Below are positions 14,237 to 45,901 of a stretch of DNA of 64,000 bases, one piece after another. The DNA comes from a candidate division WWE3 bacterium (GTDB lineage: Bacteria > Patescibacteriota > WWE3 > UBA101185 > UBA10185): contig JBPOHV010000001.1 of assembly GCA_052035175.1 (NCBI GenBank), positions 169,569-233,568 of the forward strand. The letters are read 5' to 3'. The stretch's first letter is position 1; the number at the start of each line of letters is the position of its first letter. Made by a program: the position numbers and the translations under genes. The notes under the pieces were generated by a model. It was given only the letters and a program-made list of their open reading frames with translations. It had not been told where the DNA came from and ran no database searches.

Positions 14237-14274
14237 TCACTGCAACTTCTGTGTCTTGGCTGTACAATTAACTT

Positions 14275-17134: not shown

Positions 17135-17230
17135 AAGTCAACTATACTCCAATAGAGTTTGAGGGTGAAGTACCCGCTAAATTTAGAAATCGACCTAATA
17201 TTAAAGGTTGGGATATATTACAATAGCATT

Positions 17231-17984: not shown

Positions 17985-18106
17985 TGTCCCCATTTTGGAA
18001 CACCTCTTCGAGAGCTTAATACGTACTTCTGAAAGACTCCAAGAGTTAGGCTTTACCTATTATAATGGAAAAGTGACTGTTATTGAAACTCAAGAGGAGG
18101 GAAACA

Positions 18107-18547
18107 ATGGATAACTCCTCTCTTTTTGACGAAAGGACATTTTATAAGCAATTTATACCCGATTTACTTCGATGTGATCATGAGGTTATTATCGAAAGTC
18201 CATTCATAACTAGTGAACGAATGGCTACTTTGTATCCTGTTTTTGAAAAACTAGTGAACCAAGGTGTAAAGGTTTATATCATAACCAGAGATCCTAAAGA
18301 ACACTCTAATGGCTATGAAATACAATCTGAAGCTGAAATACAGCGTTTCGAACAGTTGGGTGTACAAGTTTTCCTTTGCATAGGCAACCATCACCGCAAA
18401 TTAGCAATCCTTGATAGAAATATCCTATGGGAAGGTAGTCTCAATATTCTTTCTCAAATACAAAGTAGGGAAATCATGAGACGAATTGAAGCTAAAAGCG
18501 CAGCAGTTGAAATGTTTAATTATTTGAAGCTGGGGAGGTTTTTATAG
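18107..18547 (+). CDS. single-HKD phospholipase-D-family nuclease (Nuc-like)
   Basis: 'GNHHRKLAILD' HxKxxxxD motif. ~146 aa like plasmid Nuc. Strong AGGAGG Shine-Dalgarno 8 nt before the ATG at 18107. The ORF track began it at an upstream TTG. Confidence 0.6.
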   Translation: MDNSSLFDERTFYKQFIPDLLRCDHEVIIESPFITSERMATLYPVFEKLVNQGVKVYIITRDPKEHSNGYEIQSEAEIQRFEQLGVQVFLCIGNHHRKLAILDRNILWEGSLNILSQIQSREIMRRIEAKSAAVEMFNYLKLGRFL

Positions 18548-18550
18548 TCT

Positions 18551-18811
18551 ATGTTATACTCCAACCATATGACCAAGAAGTTTACAGGCTACGAAATCAA
18601 TGAAAAAGATATTGAGGCAACGCTACGCTATCTCATAACTGAAAAGGGTATGAAGAACGCGACACGGGAAGATGCAATTAGCTTTTTGGAGGAACATCAG
18701 GATCTTGCGCATCTTATGGCTCATAAAATAGTTGAGGATGAAAAAAGTGGAAAAATTAAACCAGTAAAACTTGAATCTGATAAGGAAAAGCAGAAAATTG
18801 GATCAAAATGA
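18551..18811 (+). CDS. hypothetical small protein
   Basis: 86-aa charged ORF abutting the nuclease gene. Confidence 0.3.
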   Translation: MLYSNHMTKKFTGYEINEKDIEATLRYLITEKGMKNATREDAISFLEEHQDLAHLMAHKIVEDEKSGKIKPVKLESDKEKQKIGSK

Positions 18812-19027
18812 CAAAATGTCAGAAGATTTTACTTTAAGTATCTTGAGTATATTCTGGAATATTTTCAACGAAGGATTCACTTCATCCCTTTCTATACGAG
18901 CATAGTAATTGGAATTAATCCCAGCCTTTTTGGCAACATCGGACTGTTTTAGTCCAAGTTCTTGTCTGGCTTCTTTTAATTTTTTCCCAATTTTTGTTTT
19001 TGGCGGCATAGTGAGATTATAAGCCAT
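18803..19027 (-). CDS. XRE-family helix-turn-helix transcriptional regulator
   Basis: 'LKQSDVAKKAGINSNYYARIERDEVNPSL' is a canonical HTH_XRE. Confidence 0.7.
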   Translation of the reverse strand: MAYNLTMPPKTKIGKKLKEARQELGLKQSDVAKKAGINSNYYARIERDEVNPSLKIFQNILKILKVKSSDILSF

Positions 19028-19164
19028 TTCATGATCTTCTGCCTAGAAACAATGTTTTTAGAATTTCAGAGTCTGAAAACCCTCTCAGGAAAGCAACTGA
19101 GTAATAAGTCTTTAATTCCTCACACTCAAACGAAGGAAATATACAATTTTTGCAACTTTTTACC

Positions 19165-21378
19165 TTATGTTTGGACCTGTATTTCTAATGTTGGTTTCAA
19201 GATCTCGAGAACTGTTCGGAACCTACTAAATACCTGGTTATACAAATTTACCTCCCTTGGAGCACTAACCTCAACTACTAGTGCATAAGGAATCTCTTGA
19301 GCTTCTCTCGATTTATTACCACCATCTCTGGCAATATAGTGAACATTAAATTCAGGATTTTTAAGACTTTTTCCAAGCATAGACCGTGAGGAAGAAACAG
19401 TGGGTTCCCACCTATGGGAATCGTACCTCTTGTCGTCCCCATCAAGGCCCTTGTAAAGCCTAGAAGAAGAAAAGAATGGTTTTGAATCTGGGTACTCCTG
19501 GTTAGGATCCTTCTTTTTGTCTTCATGAGGTCTAAAAACCATTTCAAGACCACTTTGGGTATAGTTCGCTGAATCCTGTGGGTCAGTAGAAGTGGCATAA
19601 CACATAGTGGCCTTAACTAGAACCTTTCCTCTTATTTGAGTGTTTGGAAGAGGAACCGGAATTCTCATCCATTCCCCAGGACTCAATTTACCCTGGTAGA
19701 CTACCTTTACACAGTGATCATCACATGAAGTTATTAAACCAATATCGGAGTTTAATTTTCCCCATCCTACATCCGCTATATCGTGATTTTCCTTTTCACT
19801 AGAATGGATAAGTAGTGTCTTTATTGCAAGTGGATTCAAGTTGCTGCCAAATAGTGCACGGACACCGACTGCTCCTCTCAGTACCAAAGGAGCTGCAAAG
19901 CTAGTTCCCTGTACTGGAATCGAAAAACCGGCATTATCATTATCTACGACCCAGAAAAACTCCTTGGTTGAACCACCAAATCCAAGCAAATCAGGTTTTA
20001 TATATCCAGGAAGTCTACCAGGACCAATACAACTATAGCTTGCTTTTTGCCAATTATCGCCTTGACTATCCGCAGCACCGATACATAACCCGTTAACACA
20101 ATCTGATGGAGGTTGAATACGAGCATTTCCAGAAGCTCTATCCAAATGACCATTATTACCTGCAGCTAATGTTGCCAATATTGCTCCGTCAGAGAAAACT
20201 TCATCTAGTACCGAAGTCCATGCGTGCACATCACTATCCTCAACAGGTATGTCTGGACCACAGCTTATATTGACGAAATTATAGTTAGTAGAAGTAAGAA
20301 TATCCTTGATTCTTTTAAGCACTTTTATTAGGTTGGCATCGACATTGTCACTGGCGTCAAAAACTCTATATAGATCAACGTATGAGTAGGGTTGAGGTGA
20401 TTGGACACCATCTTGCAGTGAGCCGAAAAGAAAAGCCGATGATACCCATTGTCCATGATTTACTCCATGTGCAATTGGTTGGCTTAATTTCCCAATTTCC
20501 TTTTTATCTACCCACTTTGACAAAGAACTGTTGTCGGGAAACCCACCGTCAAATATTGCAACTTTCAAATTAGGGTCAACAGGTTTTACATCTGGCAAAT
20601 TAATAGGGAAATTTATACCAGTTGAACGCAAAGCTGGTTCGAAACCACGCAGTTTGGGCATTTCTCTTAGCACTCTCAAGAAAGAGTATTCAGCAATTTC
20701 TTGCGCTTTAGTTTTTGGGGCTTCAAGTGACAAAAAACATAAACCTTTTGAAAAAATAAGATCACCAATGGTCGAGTCCCCTTCAAGGGAATCCAAATAT
20801 TTTTTAAATCCATTTACGAGATAAGATTCATCAGCTGAGGCATGTAAGACTGCTTCAAACGTCAACCGATTTTTTTCCGTATGTATTGGAATCAATTTTT
20901 CCGAAATATTCAAAGGCTTAATCATTTCTATCTTCGATAATTCCACTCCTTCGATTGAATTAGGAATGGTTCTTACCAAAAGTTCAGGTAGTGCTTCTAA
21001 TTTTGTTTTCTCTCCGGCAACGAATATTTCTGTTGTTACTACGTCGGTGGTATCTCTCTTTTTCGTCCACTTTTCCGGTTTTATCTTTGTCATCCTGCTT
21101 CCAACTTGTTCTAAATTCCACGAGCGAAATAAAGATTCTGGATAATATGATTTTGCTGTAAATTCTGGATGCAAAACGAAAGAAACCACAGTTTGGTTTT
21201 CGGGACAAGCCAAATCGGGCAAAGATTGAACAGATTTTAAAGTCTGACCAATTTGGACCCCAAGCCTTTTCACGGATTCCTCAAAAGAATATGGCATGCT
21301 CTTATTCAAAGCAGTCTTTGGAGGATCCATTTTTTCTGTTAATCGTTCACCAAAACCGAGGAGGAAATTTCTTGGCAT
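19165..21378 (-). CDS. S8 family subtilisin-like serine peptidase (IetS-like)
   Basis: Subtilase catalytic Ser motif 'GTSFAAPLV'. 'HGVNHGQ' His region. 'AAGNNGHLD' oxyanion/Asn region. Sits 2 nt downstream of the AAA+ gene. Confidence 0.7.
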   Translation of the reverse strand: MPRNFLLGFGERLTEKMDPPKTALNKSMPYSFEESVKRLGVQIGQTLKSVQSLPDLACPENQTVVSFVLHPEFTAKSYYPESLFRSWNLEQVGSRMTKIKPEKWTKKRDTTDVVTTEIFVAGEKTKLEALPELLVRTIPNSIEGVELSKIEMIKPLNISEKLIPIHTEKNRLTFEAVLHASADESYLVNGFKKYLDSLEGDSTIGDLIFSKGLCFLSLEAPKTKAQEIAEYSFLRVLREMPKLRGFEPALRSTGINFPINLPDVKPVDPNLKVAIFDGGFPDNSSLSKWVDKKEIGKLSQPIAHGVNHGQWVSSAFLFGSLQDGVQSPQPYSYVDLYRVFDASDNVDANLIKVLKRIKDILTSTNYNFVNISCGPDIPVEDSDVHAWTSVLDEVFSDGAILATLAAGNNGHLDRASGNARIQPPSDCVNGLCIGAADSQGDNWQKASYSCIGPGRLPGYIKPDLLGFGGSTKEFFWVVDNDNAGFSIPVQGTSFAAPLVLRGAVGVRALFGSNLNPLAIKTLLIHSSEKENHDIADVGWGKLNSDIGLITSCDDHCVKVVYQGKLSPGEWMRIPVPLPNTQIRGKVLVKATMCYATSTDPQDSANYTQSGLEMVFRPHEDKKKDPNQEYPDSKPFFSSSRLYKGLDGDDKRYDSHRWEPTVSSSRSMLGKSLKNPEFNVHYIARDGGNKSREAQEIPYALVVEVSAPREVNLYNQVFSRFRTVLEILKPTLEIQVQT

Positions 21379-21379
21379 A

Positions 21380-22471
21380 TTAATCTCCTTTAATCTTCTT
21401 GCTTAGAGTAGTTCTGCTGATACCAACCATCTCACTGGCACTTCTTTGAGAACTACCTAAGCTAACCATTAATTTAGCTACTTTCAATTTTGATTCTTTA
21501 TCTAATTTATCAATGTGTTGCGTGAAATATTCAACAACAGCATTATCTAATTTAATTTTTTTTATCACTGACTGTTTTCTAATTGATAACACAGCCCTTT
21601 CAATATCGCTAAAAGACAAAGAATTTAAAAGTGATACCAAATAATTTTTAACCTCTTTTGACTCAATTTTCTCTTTTCCCAAATAAAGGTCTACAGCCTT
21701 AACAACTTGCTCTGTTAAAGGCATTGGAAATTCAATCTCTAAATCAAATCTTCTCCATACTGCTGGGTCTAACAATGAAGCATGGTTTGTCGCAGCAATT
21801 AATAAACTATGCTCTGGCCACTCATCTATCTCTTGAAGAATGACTGTTACTAATCTCTTAAGTTCTCCAACATCTGCATTGTCATCTCTTTTTTTAGCAA
21901 TAGCATCAATTTCATCCAAAAGTAAAACACATTCCATACCCTTTGCGTAATCAAGTACATTTCTAATATTTGAGCCAGTGCGACCCAAAAAACTGCTCAT
22001 GACAGCGGATAAATCAAGTACCAAGAGGGGCATGCCTAATTTATAGGCAACCCATTTTGCTGCTAATGATTTACCGACACCAGGCTTTCCAGTAAATATA
22101 ATTGATTTTGTTGCTTGTAAACCATGCTCTCTTAATTTTCTTTTCTGTGTTCTTTCTACAATTACCTGATTAAAAATTTTTTGAATGGAATTTTCCCAAA
22201 TTGGCTCAAAGTCTAAAATGGGTTTATGAAACATACGAACCAGCTCTAGTCTAGTATCTAAGTCTACTGGGATATTGGCCATTTTTGTGTTTCTAAAACC
22301 ACTTACATTTCCTTTGTGAAATATATTTAATTTATTACTCAAATCTGGATAGTTTTCTTTAAGAACTTTGTGATGACGCTTGAGGTACATCTGCAAATCT
22401 TCAGACTTATTTTCAGCAGACAATCTTATTAGCTGGTACAGAATTTCTTGTATGTTCTTTTTTTGAGCCAT
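21380..22471 (-). CDS. AAA+ ATPase with C-terminal Fis-type HTH (IetA-like)
   Basis: Walker A 'GKPGVGKS'. Walker B 'LLLDEID'. Sensor-1/Arg-finger region 'ATNHASLLDPAVWRRFD'. C-terminal 'GISRTTLSKKIK' Fis/NtrC-type HTH. Confidence 0.7.
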   Translation of the reverse strand: MAQKKNIQEILYQLIRLSAENKSEDLQMYLKRHHKVLKENYPDLSNKLNIFHKGNVSGFRNTKMANIPVDLDTRLELVRMFHKPILDFEPIWENSIQKIFNQVIVERTQKRKLREHGLQATKSIIFTGKPGVGKSLAAKWVAYKLGMPLLVLDLSAVMSSFLGRTGSNIRNVLDYAKGMECVLLLDEIDAIAKKRDDNADVGELKRLVTVILQEIDEWPEHSLLIAATNHASLLDPAVWRRFDLEIEFPMPLTEQVVKAVDLYLGKEKIESKEVKNYLVSLLNSLSFSDIERAVLSIRKQSVIKKIKLDNAVVEYFTQHIDKLDKESKLKVAKLMVSLGSSQRSASEMVGISRTTLSKKIKGD

Positions 22472-22584
22472 TTTAATTACCTTATTATTATCTTGAATAT
22501 AATTAGATTATTACTTTCTGGAACAGAAATCAATAGTCTCGTTTGGAAATGTGCCAGTTAAATGAGGACCTTTTAATATTAAAG

Positions 22585-22610
22585 TTTTCTCTTTTTTGTA
22601 GAAGAGAAAA
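22585..22610 (-). terminator. rho-independent terminator after the M23 peptidase / T4SS operon
   Basis: 9-bp inverted repeat TTTTCTCTT/AAGAGAAAA with a 7-nt loop, followed on the minus strand by U-rich sequence. Confidence 0.4.
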
Positions 22611-22619
22611 CCTTCTTAA

Positions 22620-23228
22620 TTAATGCAAAAACACCATGGGATCTACTGGCAACCCAAACACGCGTATTTCAAAATGTAAATGTGGTCCGGTTGCCCAACC
22701 AGTCTCACCCATTTTGCCTATTACATCTCCTAGTTTTACTTCCTGGCCTTTAAATACATAAATTTTGTCAAGATGTGCATAGACCGAGCTAATGTTGTTG
22801 CCATTGTCAATAATAATATGCTTGCCATATCCCCAGAAGATTTCACCTGCATAGATGACTTTCCCATCCATAAAAGCAATCACTGGATCACCAATTTTTC
22901 CTTGAGGATTAGCAATATCCAGCCCCGTATGAAATACCTGATACAGACTTGATTCACCAAACTTTAGAGTAACAACTCCTTGTGCTGGCCATGCAAATGG
23001 ACCTGGTACTTCTGCAAAAACACTTCCATCTTTGGGATTGAGAACTTGGATGGTACTGGTATTAACCTCAACATCAACCAGTGCATCAGACACAATATTG
23101 ATACCCGTGTGCATGAGGATGAATACGGCAATAACCGGAAGTGATAAAACAATCAGGAATGAAAAGAGGACAAGCTTCAGTTCGTTACGAAATGACCAAA
23201 TTGTACTAGCAGTAAATAGTGGATGCAT
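22620..23228 (-). CDS. M23 family metallopeptidase (T4SS-associated cell-wall hydrolase)
   Basis: N-terminal TM anchor. 'HTGLDI' and 'GPHLHFEI' zinc-ligand motifs of LytM/M23. Last gene of the conjugation operon. Confidence 0.75.
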   Translation of the reverse strand: MHPLFTASTIWSFRNELKLVLFSFLIVLSLPVIAVFILMHTGINIVSDALVDVEVNTSTIQVLNPKDGSVFAEVPGPFAWPAQGVVTLKFGESSLYQVFHTGLDIANPQGKIGDPVIAFMDGKVIYAGEIFWGYGKHIIIDNGNNISSVYAHLDKIYVFKGQEVKLGDVIGKMGETGWATGPHLHFEIRVFGLPVDPMVFLH

Positions 23229-23232
23229 TCAT

Positions 23233-25062
23233 TTATGTATAGATCTCCCTCGGATCAGTGGTTAAAAGGGGATGCTCTTTCTCTGAAGCAACTACTTTCA
23301 CCGCCACATGGTTTTGATCGGCTATAACCAGAGCTTCTCCACGATCACAAGTCAATAGAAAATGCTGTTCATATTCACTCAAATGAAACTCTTGGGCTAC
23401 TTTTTTAATGGTTGTTGTATCCTGCTTCATAAGAATCCTCAGCGAGGATTGTGATGCAACTGCACGACCATAATCTTGATTTAAAAAGTCATTGGCCTGT
23501 TGGCTGATAATCGTTACTCCCAAGTAATATTTTCTGGCTCTGCGAACGAGTCCTGCCACAAACCTCGCACTTTCCTCATGTTGCAGGAGTAGCCAGCCCT
23601 CATCGATGACGAGGATTCTCTTTTGTGGATGTGATTTGACTTGTGAATGCACAAAGTTGGCAATCGTGAGCATCATGACTTGTCTTAATGATTCATCCAA
23701 ATCTTTAATATCAAATACCACCAATCGATTATCAAGTTTTACATTGGTTTGTGAATCAAAAACAGATGAGAGTGAACCTGTCACAAACTTATCAAGCCGG
23801 TGGCATAACTCTTTTTGATTCATAGCTTTGAGTTCTTTATAAAAATCTTTCAATTGAGGCATAGTGACGTTTTTGCTTCTATTCTCTTTCTTCATGGTAA
23901 TTCCGACTTTCTTGTACGTTTGGATAAGGGCTTTATCAACCACTGCCTTTTCTTCATCTGAGAGTGAACCAGCCATCAGAGAAATAATTTCAGTAAGGTC
24001 TTGGATATGTTCAGCTAAGGCATTTTCACCAGTTGCCGTATGCAATGAAAAATCAAAGGGATTGATCTTTTCGTGGGAAGTTGCTGATAATTTGATGTAT
24101 GTACCTTTAACAGATTTCGCCAGTTGCTTGTACTCCCGTTCGGGGTCAATGACGATTACCTTGGTGCCTTGCATGAGCTGGCGCAAGATTTCAACTTTTG
24201 CGGTATAACTTTTACCACTGCCTGATTGGGCAAAGATAATTGAGTTAGCATTGTTTAGTGAGAATCGATCCACAATAACGAGCGAATTGTTTGACCTATT
24301 AATCCCATACAATATCCCTGATTCTTGTACTAACTCTGAAGATACAAACGGGAATGTTAAAGCAGCTGACGAACTATCAAGATTTCTTCTCTGCCCTAAT
24401 TGATTCTCTCCTCGAGGAAGAACTGACTGTAAGCCTTCGAGTTGTTGGAAGGTAGCAGTTTTAAGATAAAAGAGTCTGGTGGACATGACTGTTTCTAAAA
24501 TGGTAGTGGTTTTATCGAGTTCAGTTAAGGAATCTGCTGTAATCGTCATGTAGATTGAGATTTGGAATAGTTTTTCTTGGCCTCGTTGGATTTTGTCTTT
24601 TAACTCCATTGCCGACTCCAAAGGGTCAGTAATTTCTGAACCAATCACTTTACCCGCTTTGAGCATTGAGCGCTTGGTTGATTCAAGCTCAGTGATTTTT
24701 CTATTTAGTTTTGGTAATGCTAAGAGTGGATCAACGTGTTCAATGTGATACGAAATATCAATATTGTGGTTAAAGTTAATCAGCATATTGAGCCAACCCA
24801 CAGATGCTACATATGGATAACCGGAGATGAAAAGTGTTCGAACACATTTATCTCCCACTTTAAGATATGAAGATTCTTCTGACAGTCCGGAATATGAAAT
24901 GAGGTCAACTTGATCTTGTTCACCAAAATGAAACTCAACTGCTTTCTTGGTGATTTCTTTAGTAGTAGCTTTTCGCTTTCTTTTCTTTAGTTTAGGAAAT
25001 TTAAAAGTTAATCTACTAAGTGGCAGTTTTTGTAATAATTGTGGTGTTGGGATATTAAACAT
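23233..25062 (-). CDS. VirB4/TrsE-type conjugative transfer ATPase (ATPase portion)
   Basis: Walker A 'AQSGSGKSYTAK'. Walker B 'LVIDEGW'. Matches VirB4 size and layout once combined with the upstream ORF. Confidence 0.75.
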   Translation of the reverse strand: MFNIPTPQLLQKLPLSRLTFKFPKLKKRKRKATTKEITKKAVEFHFGEQDQVDLISYSGLSEESSYLKVGDKCVRTLFISGYPYVASVGWLNMLINFNHNIDISYHIEHVDPLLALPKLNRKITELESTKRSMLKAGKVIGSEITDPLESAMELKDKIQRGQEKLFQISIYMTITADSLTELDKTTTILETVMSTRLFYLKTATFQQLEGLQSVLPRGENQLGQRRNLDSSSAALTFPFVSSELVQESGILYGINRSNNSLVIVDRFSLNNANSIIFAQSGSGKSYTAKVEILRQLMQGTKVIVIDPEREYKQLAKSVKGTYIKLSATSHEKINPFDFSLHTATGENALAEHIQDLTEIISLMAGSLSDEEKAVVDKALIQTYKKVGITMKKENRSKNVTMPQLKDFYKELKAMNQKELCHRLDKFVTGSLSSVFDSQTNVKLDNRLVVFDIKDLDESLRQVMMLTIANFVHSQVKSHPQKRILVIDEGWLLLQHEESARFVAGLVRRARKYYLGVTIISQQANDFLNQDYGRAVASQSSLRILMKQDTTTIKKVAQEFHLSEYEQHFLLTCDRGEALVIADQNHVAVKVVASEKEHPLLTTDPREIYT

Positions 25063-25675
25063 AGTGATGTTCCAGTAACCTTTCTATGGTTTGACCTTTG
25101 AGCGCCTGAGTTTTTATTTGGGACGGGTTGTAGAAACTGTAGAAAAGATCCAGAATTTCTAAACTATCCAGTTGTCTGGCTTTCATCCCCAGTTTATCCA
25201 ATCCCTTCATTACTAAATCACGGGTTAAATGGAGTTGTTCCTTTACTAACTCTCTATCAGGATGTTTGTCTTCTGAATGGTGGGGAATGACAACGTAGAA
25301 ATGTCTGGAGAGAATTTTATTACCACTTACCAAATTTCGAATGAAGTCACAGTAGGCTTGGATTTGTAGTTTATAGACCGTCTCTTTTTCCTTCTCTTTT
25401 GTCTGAAGAATTTGACCCACATAATCGTCAATATCTAGTTCCCGTACTCGAATGAGAATTTGGAGTTTGCAAGGAAGAGCGTTTAAGAAGTTTTGGAAGC
25501 TATCAATTAACACATCCTGCTCATCTTCACTTTTCAACTCAAAATTAACCGATGAAGAAGCCAACACAAGCCTATATTCGTTATTAGGAAGGGTTAAGAT
25601 ACCATCCTGCACTTCCTTAATGGCAATCTGTCTTCGTGAACTCACCTTATTTTGCGATTTCTTGAAAAGCCACAT
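25055..25675 (-). CDS. VirB4 N-terminal domain ORF (split from the ATPase portion)
   Basis: Resembles N-terminal domains of Gram-positive VirB4 homologues. Its stop overlaps the start of the ATPase ORF at the 8-nt 'ATGTTTAA' overlap, in a different frame. Confidence 0.45.
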   Translation of the reverse strand: MWLFKKSQNKVSSRRQIAIKEVQDGILTLPNNEYRLVLASSSVNFELKSEDEQDVLIDSFQNFLNALPCKLQILIRVRELDIDDYVGQILQTKEKEKETVYKLQIQAYCDFIRNLVSGNKILSRHFYVVIPHHSEDKHPDRELVKEQLHLTRDLVMKGLDKLGMKARQLDSLEILDLFYSFYNPSQIKTQALKGQTIERLLEHHYV

Positions 25676-26165
25676 TTAAGCCTCCTTTCTTTGCAACACG
25701 GAACTTCAAATCAAATTTTTTATTGGTCAATGCATACTCCAGTTTGATTGCGTCAGATATATGTAATGTCGACAGTTTAGTTTCTACTGTTTCCTTTACT
25801 ACTTTCTTTTTAAAAGTGAATCGTGGTTTGGTAACTATCTTGGGAAGGTCAAGTAGGCGCTGATAGGTATCGTTTTTGTTGAAGACATAGAATCGCGGTC
25901 GCAGATTGTATCGAAATAGAATTATTAACCATTGTGCAACAACTACACCTTCAATTCGTAAGGAGAGAAAAATACATATAAGCGTAATTACGATCGTTAA
26001 TGCTAGTTTGTAGACAACCAACTGCATGCTTGGTGGAAACAAGACGTAAATGATTGTCGCGAGACACACTGGAGAAATGAGGATCATTATTTGGGTTAGG
26101 CTCAAGTTACCTGCGATCTTGTCTTCTACGGTAGTTATTTGTGCTGGGATGACTTTGGTTCTCAT
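25647..26165 (-). CDS. VirB3-like small membrane protein
   Basis: Two hydrophobic helices near the N-terminus. Position between the VirB6-like and VirB4 genes. Confidence 0.35.
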   Translation of the reverse strand: MRTKVIPAQITTVEDKIAGNLSLTQIMILISPVCLATIIYVLFPPSMQLVVYKLALTIVITLICIFLSLRIEGVVVAQWLIILFRYNLRPRFYVFNKNDTYQRLLDLPKIVTKPRFTFKKKVVKETVETKLSTLHISDAIKLEYALTNKKFDLKFRVAKKGGLNVAFQEIAK

Positions 26166-27451
26166 GCGTTTATGACCTTTCTCGGTGTTTTGGCGATTCC
26201 TTGTGCTACAGCTCTGGTTGCAGACGATGAATTGTCAGCACTCATCACATTCATGATTTGGTTCCCGAGCTTTTTAAATGTTCCTGTTCTTGAAGTATAA
26301 AAAGCCATGCCCATCATGTAGGAGGGAATTTTAAGGAGGGTAAAAAATAGTCCAATCGCAACGGCAATAGAAATTAAAGAATTCTCAGTATGTGCAGGCA
26401 GGGCAAGAAATGAAGCAGCCAGTTGAATGACGACGACATGCACAAAAGCCATGAAGACTGTAACAAAGTACGTTTTGACAGCAATACTAGCCATATCAGA
26501 AAACTTAGGTAAGGTTGAGAGTAAAAAGATAAAGGGTGACAGCACTGCTCCCAGAGAAATGAGAATCAATCGGCTGATGTACATAAGAAGCAGGACAATC
26601 GAGAGAATCAAAAACAGAACTAAAAATACCAAAGTAATAAGCGGTGTAGCACCAGTAATAAATGCAGCTGGATTAATTGCATCCATGATCCAGGCTTGAT
26701 TGAGTCCACCGGTTGAATTGAGAACTGCCGCAACTAGAGCGTTGCAGGTAATAATCACGTAGTCGGCTAAGAATAAGGAGGTATTGGCTCCTAGAAACGC
26801 GAGTCCAAGTTTCGGAAGCAACACTTTGAGTTCCACTTCTTCAAAACCAAAAGTACTCGCACTCATAACTTGGAGGCCAAGCAGGGCTACGACGAGGACA
26901 AATAACGTATCGACAATCCCCAGACTTACCAGCCAGAAGTTTCTCACCACAGTGTTATTTAACAGTGTAGGAGTGGTCGTAAGATAGCCAATAACGCCAT
27001 TCACAATGGGAGCGGTGGAACTTTCTACGATATTTTGGATAAAACCGGAAACAGCATCAATTAGGACTTGAGTCAGACCTTCACTTGGTTCGACGCTTTC
27101 AATAGGAACAAGTTCAATCGGAATACTTCCACTAGGATTTTCTGTAGGTGTGAGTGCTTGAGTAAAGACAGAAACAATCAGATTGGCTGAAAGAACGAGG
27201 AGTAATCCGATCAGGGCATTCTTGATCGTGTGTTTGGCAGATTCCAAGGCATCAGGTCTACCTGTTGAGGTTATATAGGTGTAGCCACCCTTAATCAGGA
27301 AAAAGACTGAAGACAAAGAAGCGATGAGAGTTAAAATTTGCAGTGTGTTGTTGGTGTAATCAACTAACCCGGAATCAGCGGCAAAGGTATGAGAAGGAAA
27401 TAAAAAGAGACACAATATTATTACAAATAGGATGCATATACGCCTTATCAT
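26162..27451 (-). CDS. VirB6/TrbL-like polytopic membrane protein with N-terminal pilin-like segment
   Basis: Signal peptide plus at least six TM helices. The N-terminal segment 'GGYTYITSTGRPDALESAKHTIKNALIGLLLVL' is paralogous to the upstream VirB2-like pilin. Confidence 0.55.
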   Translation of the reverse strand: MIRRICILFVIILCLFLFPSHTFAADSGLVDYTNNTLQILTLIASLSSVFFLIKGGYTYITSTGRPDALESAKHTIKNALIGLLLVLSANLIVSVFTQALTPTENPSGSIPIELVPIESVEPSEGLTQVLIDAVSGFIQNIVESSTAPIVNGVIGYLTTTPTLLNNTVVRNFWLVSLGIVDTLFVLVVALLGLQVMSASTFGFEEVELKVLLPKLGLAFLGANTSLFLADYVIITCNALVAAVLNSTGGLNQAWIMDAINPAAFITGATPLITLVFLVLFLILSIVLLLMYISRLILISLGAVLSPFIFLLSTLPKFSDMASIAVKTYFVTVFMAFVHVVVIQLAASFLALPAHTENSLISIAVAIGLFFTLLKIPSYMMGMAFYTSRTGTFKKLGNQIMNVMSADNSSSATRAVAQGIAKTPRKVINA

Positions 27452-27482
27452 GAATGGATGCTTTCACTTTAGGCAGTGACAC

Positions 27483-27818
27483 TTACTGACCAGATCCGAA
27501 TGCTGTTGTTGCAAGTTGACTGATGACATTAGACAGTACAAAAGCAGCCAACACGATAGTTAATCCAACCGCTGAATACAAAATGGTCTTCTTTGATTTA
27601 TCCAGTGCTTCAGGACTCCCAGAACTCGTAATATATCCAAATCCTCCCCAGACCAGAAAACCTGCGGCAACTAAGCCCGAGAGAGTGACAAGAACTTGAA
27701 TAATACTCTGGATGAATGTTTGAATTTTAGAAACATCAGCGGACTCGGCAAAGGCTGGAGGAGCGGCGATAAGAAGTAAGGTGAGAATTATTGCTTGTGT
27801 GTAGATAAATTTTTTCAT
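27483..27818 (-). CDS. VirB2/TrbC-like pilin
   Basis: 111 aa. Signal peptide (AFA cleavage-like) followed by two hydrophobic segments. First gene of the T4SS operon. Confidence 0.5.
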   Translation of the reverse strand: MKKFIYTQAIILTLLLIAAPPAFAESADVSKIQTFIQSIIQVLVTLSGLVAAGFLVWGGFGYITSSGSPEALDKSKKTILYSAVGLTIVLAAFVLSNVISQLATTAFGSGQ

Positions 27819-40053: not shown

Positions 40054-40827
40054 TTATGGATCTTTAGGCTCCACTTTCTGTAATGTATCTCTGGTTAGTC
40101 CTTTTGTTTTTATTAGTTCCCTTGTTGAAAGGTAAAAATGTAGCCTTGCTTCATCCTCAAGCTTCTTTCGAATCTCTTTATGCAAATAGTTTTTTGACCG
40201 ATCATCTGGGCAGACAAAAATAATTTCTGGGAATGGTTTATCAGTGTGATCCTGCCAGTACTCATTCTCGTAATAGTCAAAATATTGCTTAACTCGCTTA
40301 TAAAGAACATTTTTCGGTGGTAATTCATCAAAGATATCAAGGAAGTATCTTTTTGTTCTCCCATTTGCTTCTTCGATTGAAAAATAAGCATCGGGATTGG
40401 GCAGGATAAGATACTGCATATCATCTAAATCCACTTTGGTATAAAAATTCAGTTTGGCTTTGGTTTTGTTAGTGAGTTCAACTAAAGAAAGATAAATATC
40501 TGCTACAAACAAACAGTGGTTTTTAAACTGTGTTGATAGCGTTGGTTCCCTCCAAACTCGATCCAAAAGCTCAGGCTTCACTGTACTGAATTTGTCTGGA
40601 TTACTCTTCAAATACTTTCTGCCTTTTAATCCTAATGAATACAGAGCTGGTATGGTAACTGTTTTGGGATTGTAATAACGTCTGATGTGTCCAGATTCGG
40701 TTAGTTCGTTGAGCCAGATGATAATGCGGTTGAAGTGTTTGTGATGGAGTAGATGTTGGATGTGAATACGGTGTAAGAAACGGAAGCGATAGAGATAATT
40801 AAATATGTTGTCGTGTTGGTTGTTCAT
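40054..40827 (-). CDS. putative replication-relaxation family protein (relaxosome candidate)
   Basis: Basic/His-rich N-terminal wHTH-like region. Position immediately downstream of the coupling protein. No HUH motif seen. Confidence 0.3.
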   Translation of the reverse strand: MNNQHDNIFNYLYRFRFLHRIHIQHLLHHKHFNRIIIWLNELTESGHIRRYYNPKTVTIPALYSLGLKGRKYLKSNPDKFSTVKPELLDRVWREPTLSTQFKNHCLFVADIYLSLVELTNKTKAKLNFYTKVDLDDMQYLILPNPDAYFSIEEANGRTKRYFLDIFDELPPKNVLYKRVKQYFDYYENEYWQDHTDKPFPEIIFVCPDDRSKNYLHKEIRKKLEDEARLHFYLSTRELIKTKGLTRDTLQKVEPKDP

Positions 40828-40956
40828 AAATAAAGATAGTAAAAATAATAAATACTTAGACTTTCATTCCTTCTCCTTATATATAAGGATATAGAGGTAG
40901 TACATTTCCATATTCCAGCCTTAAAATCAACCAATTCCAGTGTAAACACGCTTACA

Positions 40957-43503
40957 CTAACTCAAGGTATCTACATCCGTATAAAGTGTAGGCTGATTAC
41001 CATGTTTCTTCTCAGTTTTTGACTCAGATCGTATCGTAGTTTGTACAACGGGACTTTTATACTCGACAGCAAAGTTCTTTCGTGAGGCTTCAATCACTTC
41101 GTTTGCTTTTTGCATATTTTCTTCAATCTTGACAGGAATAGTAACCCCCGAAAACGGCTCTTCTGGATTAAGTGCGCCAAGTCTTATATAGAAATGGTAT
41201 GAAGGTAAACTGGCTATTTCTCCTTGTTCAATATATGGCCTAAACTGTGGCAAGATCATTCGTTCGTCTTCTGGGTTTGCAGTCCTAAAACAAATAACTG
41301 TTCCTGTATTAGCCAGGGTTACATTTACAAGTGACGTTTCTTCGAGTTGTGAAGTTGTTTGATGGGCAAGGATTGCGCCTAACCTATATTTTCTTGCTTC
41401 CGAAAGAATTTGCGCAAATGCAGGTGTGGCAAAGTTTTGGAACTCGTCAACATATAAATAGAAGTCTTTTCTTTGCTCTTGAGGGATCCTAGCTCTCTTT
41501 AAAGCTGCAAGTTGAATCTTGGCCATAATCAATACTCCAAATACCTCTGAGTTATCTTCTCCAATCTTTCCTTTGGAGAGATTGCACAAGAGTATTTTGC
41601 CTTCGTTGAGAATCGTGTCAAAGTTGACAGTCGATTTACCTTGTTCAAGTATTCTCTTGGCAGTTGGAGAAAACAGAAACCGCCCAATCTTATTTGTAAT
41701 CGGAGAGATCATTTTCACTTTCTGATAATCACCAGCCTTGGCAAACTCATACTTCCAAAAGTCTTTCAGGTTTTCATCAACGATGTTTTTAGTGACCGAA
41801 TTTCTGTAGGGTGTATTGATAAGTAACTTGTAGACAGTAAACAGTGTGGCATCTGGAACTGTAAAGGCAGTATGAATAGTATTTCGGAGGATATATTCCA
41901 TTCTCGGTCCAGAGTACTTATCAGAGTAGATTTTATGGAACACAGAGATAATGCTTTCTGCAATAAATTCTTTTTCTCTCACGGCATCTTCCGCACTTAA
42001 TCCTTGGGTTAATTCGAGTAAATTAATCCCCATCGGATAGCTAATGTCGTCTGGATTAAAGTACACAACATCTGGTATTCGCTTTGTAGGAATAGTTGAT
42101 AAGGCTTGTTCTATTAAATCTCCATGCGGATCTATCACACATAGACCTTTGCCGTTATGAATATCTTGATTAATCATGGATAAGAGCATGGTTGATTTAC
42201 CTGTGCCCGTAGCTCCCAAAATATATACATGTCGCCTTCTTTCATCTAAAGATAACCCGATATTTGTACTACTTCCTCCATAGGTATTTTTGGCAAATAT
42301 AATGTCTAAATCCTGAGCACGCTTGAGTGAAACCGGAGCTGGAAGTTCTTTACTGTGCAGTTTAACCAAGTCTTCAGTTTTAGTTGTACTCGTAAATGGC
42401 AAATGATAGATATCACTTATTTCTGAAACTGAAAGAATAGAATTGCTAAAAATACCAAGCAACCTATTTCTGAAAAGAAATGTCTTTAATGTTTTTATTA
42501 ACCTCAGTTTGATGTGCAATGACGGAATGATTGCCTGATATCCAGAATTACCAAAGGAAGAAAGAGCTGAAATGAACCCTCGTTCTCTTTTGCGAATTTC
42601 AGCGTAGTTGTTTCCCACAATGAGTAAGCGAATAGAAGTAGTAAATAATTGTTGATCTAGCTTTTCTTTTACCAACTGCTCAAGCTCCATTTGATAGGGA
42701 TTATCAGTTTTCTTTTGATTTCTATTTAGGAAAAAAGACCAGAATGGTTTTCTTTTAATATTCTTCAAAAGATCACTGTTTGAATAAATAAGTTGTGAGA
42801 TTCGAGAGATATCTTTTACCAAAGATTTGGTTACTGGCGATACCACCAACTGGAAAGATACTAATTCATTTTCTTCCAGCTTGGTCATACTTCCTGTGGT
42901 GTAAGCAATGGGATCGTGTTTCTCTAAGACGGCTTGCTTCTTTAAGGGAAAGGCAAAGTGGTTTGATAATTTAAATTCTGTGATTTTAAGTAAGGACTTT
43001 CCAATGCCGCCAAAACCGTAATCATCAACTTCTTTAACACTCACTCCTGGAAGATATGAAAATAGACTCTTTTTCAGTAAGTCCGCATCTTCAGACACGA
43101 TCCGAATCAAATATCTGATTCCTTGGTCTTTTGTCGCCACAATCTCGAATGAATAGCTATTACTAAGTCCTAATACTCTCGACCAAAAAGTTCGCTGACG
43201 AGCCAGACCATGAATGAGGTTAAATAATTCCTGTGTAGTATATGGACTTTGTTCTGTGGTCTTGAGCGGTTTGACTTCAAGGATAGTGTAGTTTTGTCTC
43301 AGTTGCAGTTTTATGTGAAACAACTTAAACAGAAGGAGTAAATCGAGTGCAATAAGTAGAGCCAAGAGAAGATATACAAAAACAATAGACACAAGAGGCC
43401 AGGATCCAGAAATGTGTACTTGAGAAAGAAATGAAGAAACTTGCGGAAAAAGTTTAGAAAAAAGAATATTGTTAGTGAATAGTTCTTGTAATCCTGTATT
43501 CAT
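40957..43503 (-). CDS. type IV coupling protein (VirD4/TraG/TcpA-like)
   Basis: Two N-terminal TM helices. Walker A 'GATGTGKST'. Walker B 'LYVDEFQNF'. 'AHQTTSQL' motif typical of TraG/TrwB ATPases. Confidence 0.75.
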   Translation of the reverse strand: MNTGLQELFTNNILFSKLFPQVSSFLSQVHISGSWPLVSIVFVYLLLALLIALDLLLLFKLFHIKLQLRQNYTILEVKPLKTTEQSPYTTQELFNLIHGLARQRTFWSRVLGLSNSYSFEIVATKDQGIRYLIRIVSEDADLLKKSLFSYLPGVSVKEVDDYGFGGIGKSLLKITEFKLSNHFAFPLKKQAVLEKHDPIAYTTGSMTKLEENELVSFQLVVSPVTKSLVKDISRISQLIYSNSDLLKNIKRKPFWSFFLNRNQKKTDNPYQMELEQLVKEKLDQQLFTTSIRLLIVGNNYAEIRKRERGFISALSSFGNSGYQAIIPSLHIKLRLIKTLKTFLFRNRLLGIFSNSILSVSEISDIYHLPFTSTTKTEDLVKLHSKELPAPVSLKRAQDLDIIFAKNTYGGSSTNIGLSLDERRRHVYILGATGTGKSTMLLSMINQDIHNGKGLCVIDPHGDLIEQALSTIPTKRIPDVVYFNPDDISYPMGINLLELTQGLSAEDAVREKEFIAESIISVFHKIYSDKYSGPRMEYILRNTIHTAFTVPDATLFTVYKLLINTPYRNSVTKNIVDENLKDFWKYEFAKAGDYQKVKMISPITNKIGRFLFSPTAKRILEQGKSTVNFDTILNEGKILLCNLSKGKIGEDNSEVFGVLIMAKIQLAALKRARIPQEQRKDFYLYVDEFQNFATPAFAQILSEARKYRLGAILAHQTTSQLEETSLVNVTLANTGTVICFRTANPEDERMILPQFRPYIEQGEIASLPSYHFYIRLGALNPEEPFSGVTIPVKIEENMQKANEVIEASRKNFAVEYKSPVVQTTIRSESKTEKKHGNQPTLYTDVDTLS

Positions 43504-43581
43504 GCCTACTTTTTTTAGGGCAACATGAGCAGGCTTATATTACTGAGGGAAGTATATATCAGGGTTAGTGTATTGGCAAAA

Positions 43582-43863
43582 TTATTTGCCTGAATCAGCC
43601 CTTGATGCAATTTTTTGAATTTTTTGAGCGATTTCTTCTTCAACACCTAAATCCCTAGTTACTATTGTAAGGGCACCGTACATGAGCTCTGACCGACTCG
43701 TCTCCTCTGGAAGATTGAGCATCTGAGCTAATACTCCAAAAGAATGATCAATTAAAAATTGATTTGGAGAGTGATCAAGAAGCAATAGCATGCACTGTCC
43801 CAGTTGATGAGAGATACCTTGTGCAGGGGTTTCTGTACCTCTCCTATTTGCTTCTAATGGCAT
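43582..43863 (-). CDS. hypothetical small protein
   Basis: 93-aa ORF upstream of the coupling protein gene. Confidence 0.3.
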   Translation of the reverse strand: MPLEANRRGTETPAQGISHQLGQCMLLLLDHSPNQFLIDHSFGVLAQMLNLPEETSRSELMYGALTIVTRDLGVEEEIAQKIQKIASRADSGK

Positions 43864-43993
43864 ATTATTACCTCGTTAGCCAAGTATTATATATCCTGGT
43901 CAAAACATTTTATAGGCTCTTGACAAGGTTATCTCAAAATATTATATTATCTATATATGGATAGTGTAAATTAAAGATTTATCTGATTTTGAT

Positions 43994-44170
43994 ATGGGAA
44001 GAGCAATACGTAAGGTAACTACAACTAAAAGAAAATCTCCGAAAACCCCTACTCCTTTATTGTCTCTTGAAGAGCAACTGAAAGTTTTTGCCAATGTTAT
44101 CGTAGATAGAATCTTAGAAGAACAGCAAAACGGCAATGTTTTATTGAGTAAGGAGAAACAGCATGGATAA
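43994..44170 (+). CDS. small basic protein, possible excisionase / recombination directionality factor
   Basis: 58-aa ORF absent from the ORF track. Its stop overlaps the recombinase ATG (44163). Confidence 0.3.
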   Translation: MGRAIRKVTTTKRKSPKTPTPLLSLEEQLKVFANVIVDRILEEQQNGNVLLSKEKQHG

Positions 44171-45848: not shown

Positions 45849-45901
45849 ACCCCGATTACCAGATTGAGAATCTGGTGTCCTAACCGCTAGACGATGGGGC
45901 C
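45827..45901 (-). tRNA. tRNA-Glu (anticodon CUC)
   Basis: Reverse complement folds as a cloverleaf. Acceptor GGCCCCA/UGGGGUC, D-arm GTCT..GGAC, anticodon stem CCAGA/TCTGG with loop TTCTCAA, T-arm GGGGT-TCAACTC-CCCGT (first T-stem pair G·T), encoded CCA. Confidence 0.85.

What the first reader, a model, noticed from the sequence alone, without database searches (positions are those of the whole stretch)
19165..22471. AAA+ ATPase (with Fis-type HTH) translationally coupled to a 737-aa S8 subtilase: IetAS-like defence candidate
The two genes are co-oriented and separated by 1 nt, with their own upstream promoter region and a terminator from the T4SS operon behind them. An AAA+ ATPase followed by an S8 subtilase is the reported composition of the IetAS antiphage system. 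Here the ATPase carries a C-terminal 'GISRTTLSKKIK' Fis/NtrC-like HTH. The protease has long N- and C-terminal extensions around the catalytic core, which may be sensing or effector regions. As cargo of a conjugative element it fits the pattern of defence islands hitch-hiking on mobile DNA.
Basis: partly seen in the sequence, partly recalled or inferred. Interest (0 to 1): 0.7.

Follow-up and report, generated by a model that had tools for sequence, protein, structure and literature searches.

The report
IetAS toxin–antitoxin defence gene pair
This is a genuine but ordinary member of the known IetAS ATPase–protease anti-phage/toxin–antitoxin family; the more notable point is that it sits in a swap-in "cargo slot" beside the type IV secretion genes of an ultra-small (Patescibacteria) bacterium, where related genomes carry other immune systems.

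Summary
On the minus strand, a 363-aa AAA+ ATPase (22471..21380) and a 737-aa S8 subtilase (21378..19165) are joined by TAA-T-ATG, and an AAGGAG ribosome-binding site lies inside the end of the first gene.

Both proteins match defence-system profiles over nearly their full length (PADLOC IetA E=1.6e-82, IetS E=1.2e-40). Walker A/B, the pore loop, the Arg fingers and the Asp-His-Ser triad are all intact. Both score below NCBI's IteA/IteS equivalog cut-offs, so this is a divergent subtype.

The C-terminal HTH and the long protease extensions are conserved across the clade and are not special to this copy. The N-terminal extension folds like subtilase prodomains.

The pair fills a variable slot between an M23 peptidase gene and an XRE promoter, inside a conserved Patescibacteria T4SS module. 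In 52 related loci the slot is empty in 13. Elsewhere it carries Avs2, CBASS, Thoeris, OLD-like genes, methylases and, once, an unrelated IetAS.

Close relatives of the cassette sit in serine-recombinase islands, on conjugative plasmids and in phages. Whether the T4SS region here is a true conjugative element is unresolved.

Verdict: a new member of a known kind, with a modestly interesting context.

The parts
22472..22619 (-). ietA upstream region. It holds a 12-bp hairpin (22584-22611) just after the M23 stop codon. It also holds about 100 nt conserved with two other cassettes, including an imperfect palindrome at 22505-22539 (candidate operator or promoter).
   Evidence: Sequence; hairpin; conservation with L001 and L003 upstream regions; inverted repeat I3. 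The operator role is an inference.
21380..22471 (-). ietA: 363-aa classic-clade AAA+ ATPase. Motifs: Walker A G128-S135, pore loop F161-L162-G163, Walker B D186-E187, sensor-1 N229, R240-R241.
   Evidence: PADLOC IetA PDLC02196 E=1.6e-82, covering profile positions 43-369 of 374. NCBIfam IteA 231.9 bits is the best hit but is below the cut-off of 510. Pfam AAA 2.2e-29. Invariant motifs in alignment A2. The closest solved structures are p97/Cdc48/PAN AAA modules.
21389..21457 (-). C-terminal helix-turn-helix of IetA (residues 339-361, G-SQR...(G)-SR-T).
   Evidence: G339, S341, Q342, R343, S352, R353 and T355 are invariant in 18 diverse homologues. Weak matches to HTH_8/Fis and to Aca1, Fis-like and HigA HTH proteins in the PDB.
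19165..21378 (-). ietS: 737-aa cytoplasmic S8 subtilase (the stop codon is included in these coordinates).
   Evidence: PADLOC IetS PDLC02197 E=1.2e-40, covering profile positions 60-729 of 749. NCBIfam IteS 103 bits is the best hit but is below the cut-off of 900. AlphaFold model with pLDDT 87.5 and pTM 0.91.
20584..21378 (-). IetS N-terminal region (residues 1-265): two ferredoxin-like alpha/beta modules resembling subtilase prodomains.
19759..20565 (-). IetS S8 catalytic domain (residues 272-540) with D277, H308, N408 and S493.
   Evidence: Pfam Peptidase_S8 covers 272-540. All four residues are invariant in 71 sequences.
19168..19746 (-). IetS C-terminal beta-rich domain (residues 545-737).
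   Evidence: Secondary structure of the model. The best Foldseek matches are subtilases with a prodomain plus a C-terminal beta domain (3afg, KP-43, PCSK9), aligned over up to about 690 columns. Conserved family-wide.
22620..27818 (-). Conserved Patescibacteria T4SS module: VirB2-like pilin, VirB6-like protein, PrgI/VirB3, a 206-aa unknown, VirB4 and an M23 peptidase. Its 3' end is the left edge of the cargo slot.
   Evidence: Pfam. The same order is seen in 67-80 of 80 related loci, with VirB4 70-85% identical.
18803..19045 (-). XRE-family HTH gene and its conserved TATAAT promoter (19021-19016), which form the right edge of the cargo slot. The true start codon is probably the ATG at 19009 (leaderless).
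   Evidence: Pfam HTH_3 2.3e-14. Promoter hit scoring 10 of 12. The same TGnTATAAT, followed by 6-9 nt and then ATG, appears in loci with an empty slot.
18083..18811 (+). PLD-family 154-aa nuclease-like gene and an 86-aa ORF, divergent from the XRE gene. They form the conserved end of the module.
   Evidence: Pfam PLDc_2 1.5e-10. Present in 50 of 80 loci.
40054..45901 (.). Possible conjugation and integration genes of a larger element: Replic_Relax protein (40827..40054), T4 coupling protein (43503..40957) and large serine recombinase (44163..45848, + strand), whose 3' end overlaps tRNA-Glu (45827-45901, - strand). Whether they belong to the same element as ietAS is not established.
   Evidence: Pfam. 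The recombinase is 36% identical (E=2e-102) to a Recombinase/Zn_ribbon protein of L011. tRNA. The T4CP + Replic_Relax pair recurs near the module in 11 of 81 loci.

Best explanation
The two genes are a self-contained IetAS-family cassette. IetS is a latent cytoplasmic subtilase 'toxin' and IetA is a classic-clade AAA+ ATPase 'antitoxin'. The cassette has been inserted, with its own roughly 100-nt upstream region, into a variable cargo slot between the M23 peptidase gene and the XRE promoter of the conserved Patescibacteria T4SS module.

Shown here:
- family membership at the profile level;
- intact ATPase, pore-loop and protease catalytic residues;
- a clade-wide C-terminal HTH on IetA;
- a prodomain-like N-terminal region and a beta-rich C-terminal domain on IetS;
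- the hotspot location;
- the mobility of the cassette.

Taken from the literature on other IetAS pairs:
- the protease is toxic and the ATPase neutralises it;
- protease activity is needed for phage defence;
- defence is abortive and can be triggered by expressing a single phage protein.

Inferred mechanism:
1. In uninfected cells the IetA hexamer uses ATP and its pore loops to hold or re-set IetS in a zymogen-like state, acting through the protease's prodomain-like modules.
2. The IetA HTH represses the cassette promoter, as antitoxins of type II TA systems do.
3. A phage product, or loss of the cassette, disturbs IetA. IetS is freed and cleaves cellular proteins, stopping growth before phage release.
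4. The same property would make the cassette addictive and stabilise the DNA that carries it.
For: Profile matches:
- PADLOC IetA 1.6e-82 and IetS 1.2e-40, over almost the whole profiles.
- The best NCBIfam hits are IteA/IteS_antiphage, well above PAN and FtsH.

Conserved residues:
- In IetA: K134, D186/E187, N229, R240/R241 and the pore loop (F/Y/L)161-L162-G163. L162 and G163 are invariant; position 161 is F, Y or L.
- In IetS: D277, H308, N408 and S493 are invariant.
- The HTH residues are invariant across the clade.

Structure:
- The IetS model is confident, with pTM 0.91.
- It resembles pro-subtilases with C-terminal beta domains.
- The N-terminal region alone hits subtilase prodomains.

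Hotspot:
- The module order pilin-VirB6-PrgI-u206-VirB4-M23 | slot | XRE-PLD is conserved.
- The slot is under 400 bp in 13 of 52 loci and up to 9.2 kb in the rest.
- Its cargo includes Avs2 (E=2.5e-303), TRIP13/CBASS, Thoeris, OLD/AriA-like genes and methylases.
- L040 carries an independently acquired IetAS (32% and 23% identity to this pair) in the same slot.

Mobility:
- Cassettes with 72-81% identity lie in serine-recombinase islands between housekeeping genes.
- The upstream region travels with the cassette.
- Clade members sit next to MobC-relaxase-T4CP on Paracoccus pAMI8, on 26 plasmids, and in P2-like, Pf and Paenibacillus phages.

Literature:
- TA behaviour and the statement that the mechanism is unknown (PMC13069673).
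- Abortive infection triggered by SPbeta yosG (bioRxiv 10.1101/2022.08.27.505566).
- A mycoplasma ATPase/subtilase TA pair (PMC8562856).
Against: - No experiment exists for this subtype or this organism. Scores fall below NCBI's equivalog cut-offs, and identity to annotated IteS and to the Ti-plasmid IetS is only about 23-27%. Function is therefore extrapolated across a large distance.
- The direction of IetA action (restraining or activating IetS) cannot be read from sequence.
- The HTH assignment is weak at the family level. The candidate operator palindrome is imperfect and not clearly conserved.
- The slot also carries non-defence genes such as GNAT, MFS, ArsP and a chromate transporter. 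Location alone therefore does not prove an immune role.
Confidence: 0.75

Rival explanations
1. The pair works mainly as an addiction (post-segregational killing) module that stabilises the mobile DNA or hotspot carrying it. This is how ietAS was first described on the Ti plasmid. On this reading it has no meaningful anti-phage role in this organism.
For: - IetAS was first identified as a plasmid-stabilising TA system (cited in PMC13069673, and PMC8562856).
- Clade members sit directly beside transfer genes on conjugative plasmids.
- They also sit inside small serine-recombinase islands.
- The HTH-bearing antitoxin fits type II TA logic.
Against: - The same slot in sister genomes is filled mostly with bona fide anti-phage systems: Avs2, CBASS, Thoeris and OLD-like genes.
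- Other IetAS pairs protect against phage in experiments.
- The two roles are not mutually exclusive.
Confidence: 0.2
2. The ATPase and protease are accessory parts of the type IV secretion machine, for example processing pilins or secreted substrates. They would be co-transcribed with the VirB4-M23 genes.
For: - Same strand as the T4SS genes, and only 148 nt downstream of the M23 gene.
- Subtilases process secreted proteins in other systems, such as mycosin in T7SS, which gives a weak NCBIfam hit.
Against: - The pair is absent from this position in 50 of 52 related loci that keep the full T4SS module.
- A hairpin separates it from the M23 gene, and it brings its own conserved upstream region.
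- Close relatives have no T4SS nearby.
- IetS has no signal peptide or membrane segment at its N-terminus (sequence).
Confidence: 0.03
3. A housekeeping ATP-dependent protein-quality-control system: a split AAA+ protease analogous to FtsH, Lon or the proteasome-activating ATPases.
For: The AAA module is of the classic clade with a conserved pore loop. It is most similar in the PDB to p97/Cdc48/PAN.
Against: - FtsH, PAN and ClpX models score far below their cut-offs and far below IetA.
- The pair is patchily distributed, carried on mobile elements, and absent from most sister genomes.
- An HTH tail is not a feature of housekeeping unfoldases.
Confidence: 0.02

Closest known systems
IetAS / IteAS anti-phage system (Gao et al. 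2020; PADLOC IetA/IetS; NCBIfam NF042959/NF042956)
   Same: - Two co-oriented genes, with the AAA+ ATPase upstream of a roughly 740-aa S8 peptidase.
- Best profile hits for both proteins, over nearly full length.
- Intact catalytic residues.
- Carried on mobile elements.
   Different: - Below the NCBI equivalog cut-offs, and only about 23% identical to an annotated IteS.
- It belongs to the PDLC02196/02197 subtype, which is abundant in soil Acidobacteriota, Proteobacteria and Verrucomicrobiota.
- The host is a Patescibacteria genome.
- I found no experimental test of this subtype in the papers read.
ietA/ietS toxin-antitoxin of Agrobacterium pTiC58 (Yamamoto et al. 2009, as cited in PMC13069673 and PMC8562856)
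   Same: - Protease toxin plus AAA-ATPase antitoxin.
- Located on conjugative DNA.
- Expected addiction behaviour.
   Different: - Ti/Ri-plasmid proteins align over only 43% of IetS, at 26.7% identity.
- The original paper was not available to read.
Mycoplasma mycoides TA132/133 (AAA-ATPase 353 aa / subtilisin-like protease 757 aa; PMC8562856)
   Same: - Same sizes, gene order and absence of an intergenic gap.
- A reduced-genome, chromosomally located pair, shown experimentally to be a toxin-antitoxin pair.
   Different: - Different phylum.
- Sequence relationship to this pair was not measured here.
- An anti-phage role has not been tested there.
ietHAS (IetAS plus an SNF2 helicase; PMC13069673)
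   Same: Same core pair. The protease is required for defence, and the ATPase could not be mutated, which is consistent with an antitoxin role.
   Different: No helicase gene accompanies the pair here. The slot holds only the two genes.
Core defence hotspots flanked by conserved genes (e.g. Pseudomonas aeruginosa cDHS, P2/P4 hotspots; PMC10250203, PMC9122126)
   Same: A fixed intergenic position between conserved genes that is either empty or filled with highly diverse, mostly immune cargo.
   Different: - The flanking genes here are the T4SS M23 peptidase gene and an XRE/PLD pair, in Patescibacteria.
- I found no description of this hotspot.

Membership tests
IetAS defence system | Adjacent, co-oriented AAA+ ATPase gene followed by an S8 peptidase gene | tested here: met
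   22471..21380 and 21378..19165 on the same strand, with a 1-nt gap.
IetAS defence system | The ATPase matches an IetA profile | tested here: met
   PADLOC PDLC02196 E=1.6e-82, profile positions 43-369 of 374. Three further IetA profiles also match.
IetAS defence system | The peptidase matches an IetS profile | tested here: met
   PADLOC PDLC02197 E=1.2e-40, profile positions 60-729 of 749. Five further IetS profiles also match.
IetAS defence system | Equivalog-level identity to the reference IteA/IteS (NCBIfam curated cut-offs) | tested here: not met
   IteA 231.9 bits against a cut-off of 510; IteS 103.4 bits against 900. These are the best hits, but this is a divergent subtype and not an equivalog.
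IetAS defence system | Catalytically competent ATPase and protease | tested here: met
   Walker A K134, Walker B D186/E187, N229 and R240/R241. D277/H308/N408/S493 are invariant.
IetAS defence system | Protects against phage; the protease is toxic and is neutralised by the ATPase | not testable with these tools
   Known only for other members.
Type II-like toxin-antitoxin module | The antitoxin carries a DNA-binding domain and autoregulates the operon | tested here: inconclusive
   A conserved C-terminal HTH is present. There is an imperfect palindrome in the conserved upstream region. Binding was not testable.
Integrative conjugative element (as carrier) | Mating-pair formation genes (VirB4, VirB6, pilin) | tested here: met
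   Note that this module is near-universal and largely vertically inherited in Patescibacteria (PMC12102498).
Integrative conjugative element (as carrier) | Coupling protein and relaxase | tested here: inconclusive
   The T4CP is present: TrwB_AAD_bind 41.6 bits and TraG-D_C. The only relaxase candidate is a Replic_Relax (PF13814) protein at 39.3 bits, about 12 kb from the module.
Integrative conjugative element (as carrier) | Integrase and defined ends | tested here: inconclusive
   A large serine recombinase abuts tRNA-Glu. No second copy of the tRNA end and no flanking repeats were found. G+C is about 0.38 in 19-46 kb against about 0.33-0.35 outside.
Housekeeping AAA+ proteases (FtsH, PAN, ClpX partners) | Reaches the family's curated score | tested here: not met
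   PAN 88.9 bits against 500; FtsH 72.5 against 600; ClpX 20 against 359.

The most novel reading that the evidence does not exclude
The interval between the M23 peptidase gene and the XRE promoter of the class-wide Patescibacteria (Microgenomatia-type) T4SS module may be a previously undescribed immune-gene docking site.

In 52 loci it is empty 13 times. Otherwise it holds 83 different gene families, including Avs2, CBASS, Thoeris, OLD-like nucleases and two unrelated IetAS cassettes.

If so, ultra-small epibiotic bacteria keep exchangeable defence cargo tethered to their host-contact machinery. The cargo with no recognisable family would then be candidate new defence systems: L013 (735 aa), L031 (622 + 799 aa) and L034 (1167 aa).
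Probability: 0.5. Interest if true: 0.6.

Novelty: new member of a known kind. Interest (0 to 1): 0.3.

Why it matters
Standard tools (PADLOC, NCBIfam) would flag this pair automatically, so the pair by itself adds little.

Its value is threefold.

1. It places an IetAS subtype in Patescibacteria. These are tiny-genome bacteria whose immune repertoires are poorly known.

2. The clade-wide features documented here give concrete, testable hypotheses for a system whose mechanism the literature still calls unknown (PMC13069673). The features are a conserved substrate-threading pore loop and an HTH on IetA, and prodomain-like modules plus a C-terminal beta domain on IetS.

3. The insertion site proved to be a recurrent cargo slot. 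It could be mined for further defence systems in a phylum that cannot yet be screened experimentally.

Tried and rejected
- **Exact-sequence look-ups.** Look-ups of the window's IetS found no contig on record. The organism is therefore inferred only from VirB4 relatives (Patescibacteria/Microgenomates MAGs) and from the 925-kb contig size.
- **PDB sequence search with IetS.** No hits. Foldseek against the PDB found only generic subtilases and no solved IetS.
- **Element ends.** Direct repeats across the window and a search for a second copy of the tRNA-Glu 3' end found nothing useful.
- **Sigma-70 promoter scan.** No promoter upstream of ietA and no enrichment over shuffles. Patescibacteria promoters may differ from the consensus.
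- **Downstream of ietS.** No conservation among cassettes.
- **Rfam.** Only the three tRNAs.
- **PADLOC on the window's other neighbours.** The 267, 437, 465, 402 and 86-aa ORFs gave nothing. The PLD and XRE genes gave only domain-level hits. In this genome IetAS is therefore not part of a larger recognisable defence island.
- **Yamamoto 2009.** The paper could not be read.
- **T4SS-accessory and housekeeping readings.** Both were considered and rejected on synteny and profile scores.
Full report
**1. Observation**

The ORF list reproduces the finding exactly. On the minus strand, a 363-aa ORF (22471..21380) is followed by a 737-aa ORF (21378..19165). The junction is ...AAAGGAGATTAA-T-ATG. This gives a 1-nt gap, with an AAGGAG ribosome-binding site inside the end of the first gene, so translational coupling is plausible.

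Pfam finds an AAA domain (2.2e-29) in the first protein and Peptidase_S8 (4.3e-15, residues 272-540) in the second.

A 12-bp hairpin (22584-22611) follows the upstream M23 peptidase gene. The sigma-70 scan finds no promoter between the hairpin and ietA, and finds fewer sites in the region than in shuffles.

**2. Family assignment**

Against PADLOC, the ATPase matches four IetA profiles. The best is PDLC02196 (E=1.6e-82, profile positions 43-369 of 374). The protease matches six IetS profiles. The best is PDLC02197 (E=1.2e-40, positions 60-729 of 749).

In NCBIfam the best hits are IteA_antiphage (231.9 bits) and IteS_antiphage (103.4 bits). These are well ahead of PAN (88.9), FtsH (72.5) and ClpX (20). 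Both are nevertheless below the curated equivalog cut-offs of 510 and 900 bits.

The pair is a divergent IetAS subtype and not an equivalog of the reference. Consistent with this, an annotated iteS on a Dongshaea plasmid is 22.6% identical, and the Ti/Ri-plasmid proteins are 26.7% identical over 43% of the length.

**3. Sequence anatomy**

IetS has 1,612 homologues at E<=0.001. Hundreds of these are full-length (about 745 aa) proteins at 45-50% identity, from MAGs labelled Acidobacteriaceae and Vicinamibacterales and from many unlabelled metagenome contigs.

In alignments of 18 and 71 sequences, the S8 triad and oxyanion residue (D277, H308, S493, N408) are invariant. Conservation extends through the whole N-terminal 265 and C-terminal 190 residues. 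The 'extensions' are therefore family features.

IetA has 6,215 homologues. The following are invariant in an 18-sequence alignment:
- Walker A, including K134;
- Walker B (D186, E187);
- sensor-1 N229;
- R240 and R241.

The alignment also shows an aromatic-hydrophobic-Gly motif, (F/Y/L)161-L162-G163, 27 residues after the Walker lysine. That is where classic-clade AAA+ unfoldases carry pore loop 1. The motif is read from the alignment; its role is inferred from established knowledge of FtsH, PAN and p97. The closest solved structures are p97/Cdc48/NSF/PAN modules.

The C-terminal HTH (G339, S341, Q342, R343 ... S352, R353, T355) is invariant across the clade and lies inside the PADLOC IetA profile. 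Its family is uncertain: Pfam HTH_8 gives E=0.005, below the cut-off, and a profile of the tail hits Aca1 (E=0.004), a Fis-like protein (E=0.03) and HigA (E about 1). The HTH is therefore real but is not a peculiarity of this copy, and 'Fis-type' is not established.

**4. Structure**

An AlphaFold2 model of IetS built from 71 sequences is confident (pLDDT 87.5, pTM 0.91). No IetS structure exists in the PDB, by sequence or by fold. The best fold matches are subtilases that retain a prodomain and carry a C-terminal beta domain: ProN-Tk-SP 3afg, KP-43, PCSK9 and EpiP.

I read IetS as a cytoplasmic, zymogen-like subtilase. There is no hydrophobic N-terminus (sequence). I could not check whether the prodomain-like modules cover the active site.

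**5. Genomic context: a cargo slot in the T4SS module**

Upstream on the same strand lie a VirB2-like pilin, a VirB6-like protein, PrgI/VirB3, a 206-aa unknown, VirB4 and an M23 peptidase. Downstream lie an XRE HTH gene on the same strand, then an 86-aa ORF and a 154-aa PLD-family gene on the opposite strand.

A scan of species-representative genomes with VirB4 returned 80 loci. Most carry Patescibacteria/Microgenomates-type labels (Davies-, Roizman-, Levy-, Shapiro-, Collier-, Woyke- and Gottesmanbacteria), and VirB4 is 70-85% identical.

tblastn of the window's proteins shows the same order in these loci: pilin-VirB6-PrgI-u206-VirB4-M23 | gap | XRE-(u86)-PLD. None of the window's genes outside this module recur, apart from copper-resistance genes in about six loci.

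The gap was measurable in 52 loci:
- 60-400 bp in 13 loci;
- up to 9.2 kb in the other 39.

In empty loci the M23 stop codon is followed within 40-70 nt by a TGnTATAAT box and, 6-9 nt later, the XRE start codon. The window has the same box at 19021-19016. This fixes the right edge of the slot and suggests that the XRE gene starts at 19009 as a leaderless message.

The 105 cargo ORFs of at least 100 aa fall into 83 clusters, 65 of them singletons. Profile scans of 102 of these cargo ORFs find:
- CBASS cyclases (up to 7 members), Cap15 effectors and TRIP13 (3.5e-121);
- Thoeris ThsA and ThsB;
- Avs2 (2.5e-303);
- OLD/AriA/GajA-like ATPase nucleases;
- PDC-S39, mad3, C5 and N6 methylases, NERD and KAP NTPases;
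- some non-immune genes (GNAT, MFS, ArsP, a chromate transporter).

L040 carries, in the same slot, a different IetAS. Its IetA is 32% and its IetS 23% identical to the window's pair, yet they match the same PADLOC profiles at 1e-42 and 3.5e-63. That indicates an independent acquisition.

In the window the slot holds only ietAS. The neighbouring unknown ORFs have no defence-profile hits.

**6. Mobility of the cassette**

The closest relatives (IetS 72-74%, IetA 76-81% identical) lie in small islands between housekeeping genes. These islands have a large serine recombinase, an HTH_17 protein and, in one case, a VapE-like primase, and they have no T4SS. A 50%-identical pair likewise lies next to a serine recombinase.

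About 100 nt upstream of ietA is conserved among the window, L001 and L003, whereas the sequence after ietS is not. The mobile unit is therefore promoter region + ietA + ietS. The conserved stretch contains an imperfect palindrome (22505-22539), which is a weak operator candidate.

Full-length clade members at 33-42% identity occur on 26 plasmids. One is Paracoccus pAMI8, where the pair directly follows the MobC-relaxase-coupling protein genes. Others occur in a P2-like Enterobacter phage, a Pf filamentous phage and Paenibacillus phages.

**7. Is the carrier a conjugative element?**

For:
- the window also encodes a T4 coupling protein (43503..40957) and a Replic_Relax protein (40827..40054);
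- it encodes a large serine recombinase (44163..45848; Resolvase domain 36 bits; 36% identical to a recombinase that recurs near the module) whose end overlaps tRNA-Glu;
- the intervening genes are typical accessory cargo: two copper P-type ATPases, cupredoxins, DsbA/DsbD, a BlaI/BlaR-like pair and BacA;
- G+C is somewhat higher in 19-46 kb;
- two contigs carry two copies of the module.

Against:
- a survey of 3,035 Patescibacteria genomes found VirB4 in 80% of them, usually as a single copy, tracking class phylogeny and mostly without relaxases. It concluded that the system is chromosomal and co-opted (PMC12102498);
- I found no element ends.

I therefore treat the slot as a hotspot flanked by conserved genes. 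'Conjugative element' remains an open possibility, at roughly even odds.

**8. Mechanism**

Known from other members:
- the protease is toxic and the ATPase neutralises it;
- the ATPase could not be inactivated in the presence of the protease;
- protease activity is needed for defence, and the anti-phage mechanism 'remains unknown' (PMC13069673);
- a Bacillus IetAS acts by abortive infection and is triggered by expressing the SPbeta gene yosG;
- a mycoplasma pair of the same sizes is a working TA system.

Combining this with the anatomy above gives my preferred model. It is inferred, not shown.
1. A hexameric IetA uses ATP and its pore loops to hold or re-set IetS in a latent state, acting through the protease's prodomain-like modules.
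2. The IetA HTH represses the cassette promoter.
3. A phage product, or loss of the cassette, disturbs IetA.
4. IetS then cleaves cellular proteins and arrests the cell.

Addiction and immunity would be two faces of the same property.

**9. Verdict**

The finding is a new member, of a divergent subtype, of a known system that standard defence annotators would call automatically.

The HTH and the extensions are family traits and not novelties. The most interesting by-product is the M23-XRE cargo slot. I did not find it described in the literature held here.

Noticed in passing
window 19028-22619; loci L006-L082 between the M23 and XRE genes: The interval between the T4SS M23 peptidase gene and the XRE promoter is a recurrent variable slot. 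It is empty in 13 of 52 loci. Elsewhere it holds up to 9.2 kb of highly diverse cargo: 83 clusters from 105 ORFs, including Avs2, CBASS, Thoeris, OLD-like genes, methylases and a second, unrelated IetAS in L040. I found no paper describing it.
   Followed up: partly
L013:4923-7130; L031:12466-16883; L034:17896-21399: Large slot cargo proteins (735 aa; 622 + 799 aa; 1167 aa) with no PADLOC match. They are possible unrecognised defence genes.
   Followed up: partly
window 19027..18803 (- strand): The XRE gene as called begins upstream of its own conserved -10 box (TATAAT, 19021-19016). Comparison with eight empty-slot loci suggests the real start is the ATG at 19009, on a leaderless transcript.
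   Followed up: partly
window 18083-18547 (+ strand): A 154-aa PLD-family (Nuc-like) protein lies divergent from the XRE gene and is conserved at the end of the T4SS module in 50 of 80 loci. Its role next to a secretion system is unexplained.
   Followed up: no
window 40054-45901: A Replic_Relax protein, a T4 coupling protein and a large serine recombinase whose 3' end overlaps tRNA-Glu. Together with the T4SS module they could form an integrative conjugative element of about 27 kb or more. No ends were found.
   Followed up: partly
window 28747-39971: A cluster of metal- and envelope-stress genes lies between the T4SS module and the coupling protein: two copper P-type ATPases (sharing a 71-nt repeat at 30059 and 34422), cupredoxins, DsbA/DsbD proteins, a BlaI/BlaR-like pair and BacA.
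   Followed up: no
window 13028-17962: Four sizeable ORFs (402, 465, 437 and 267 aa) downstream of the module have no significant Pfam family, no PADLOC hit, and no counterpart in any of the 80 related loci.
   Followed up: no
window 56268-56385 and 61286-61403: A 118-nt direct repeat (85% identical), with copies 5 kb apart.
   Followed up: no
L008/L009 (CAJQIG010000001.1) and L025/L028 (JBBDPM010000004.1): Two full copies of the T4SS module lie on one contig, each with different slot cargo. The published survey describes the system as usually single-copy.
   Followed up: no
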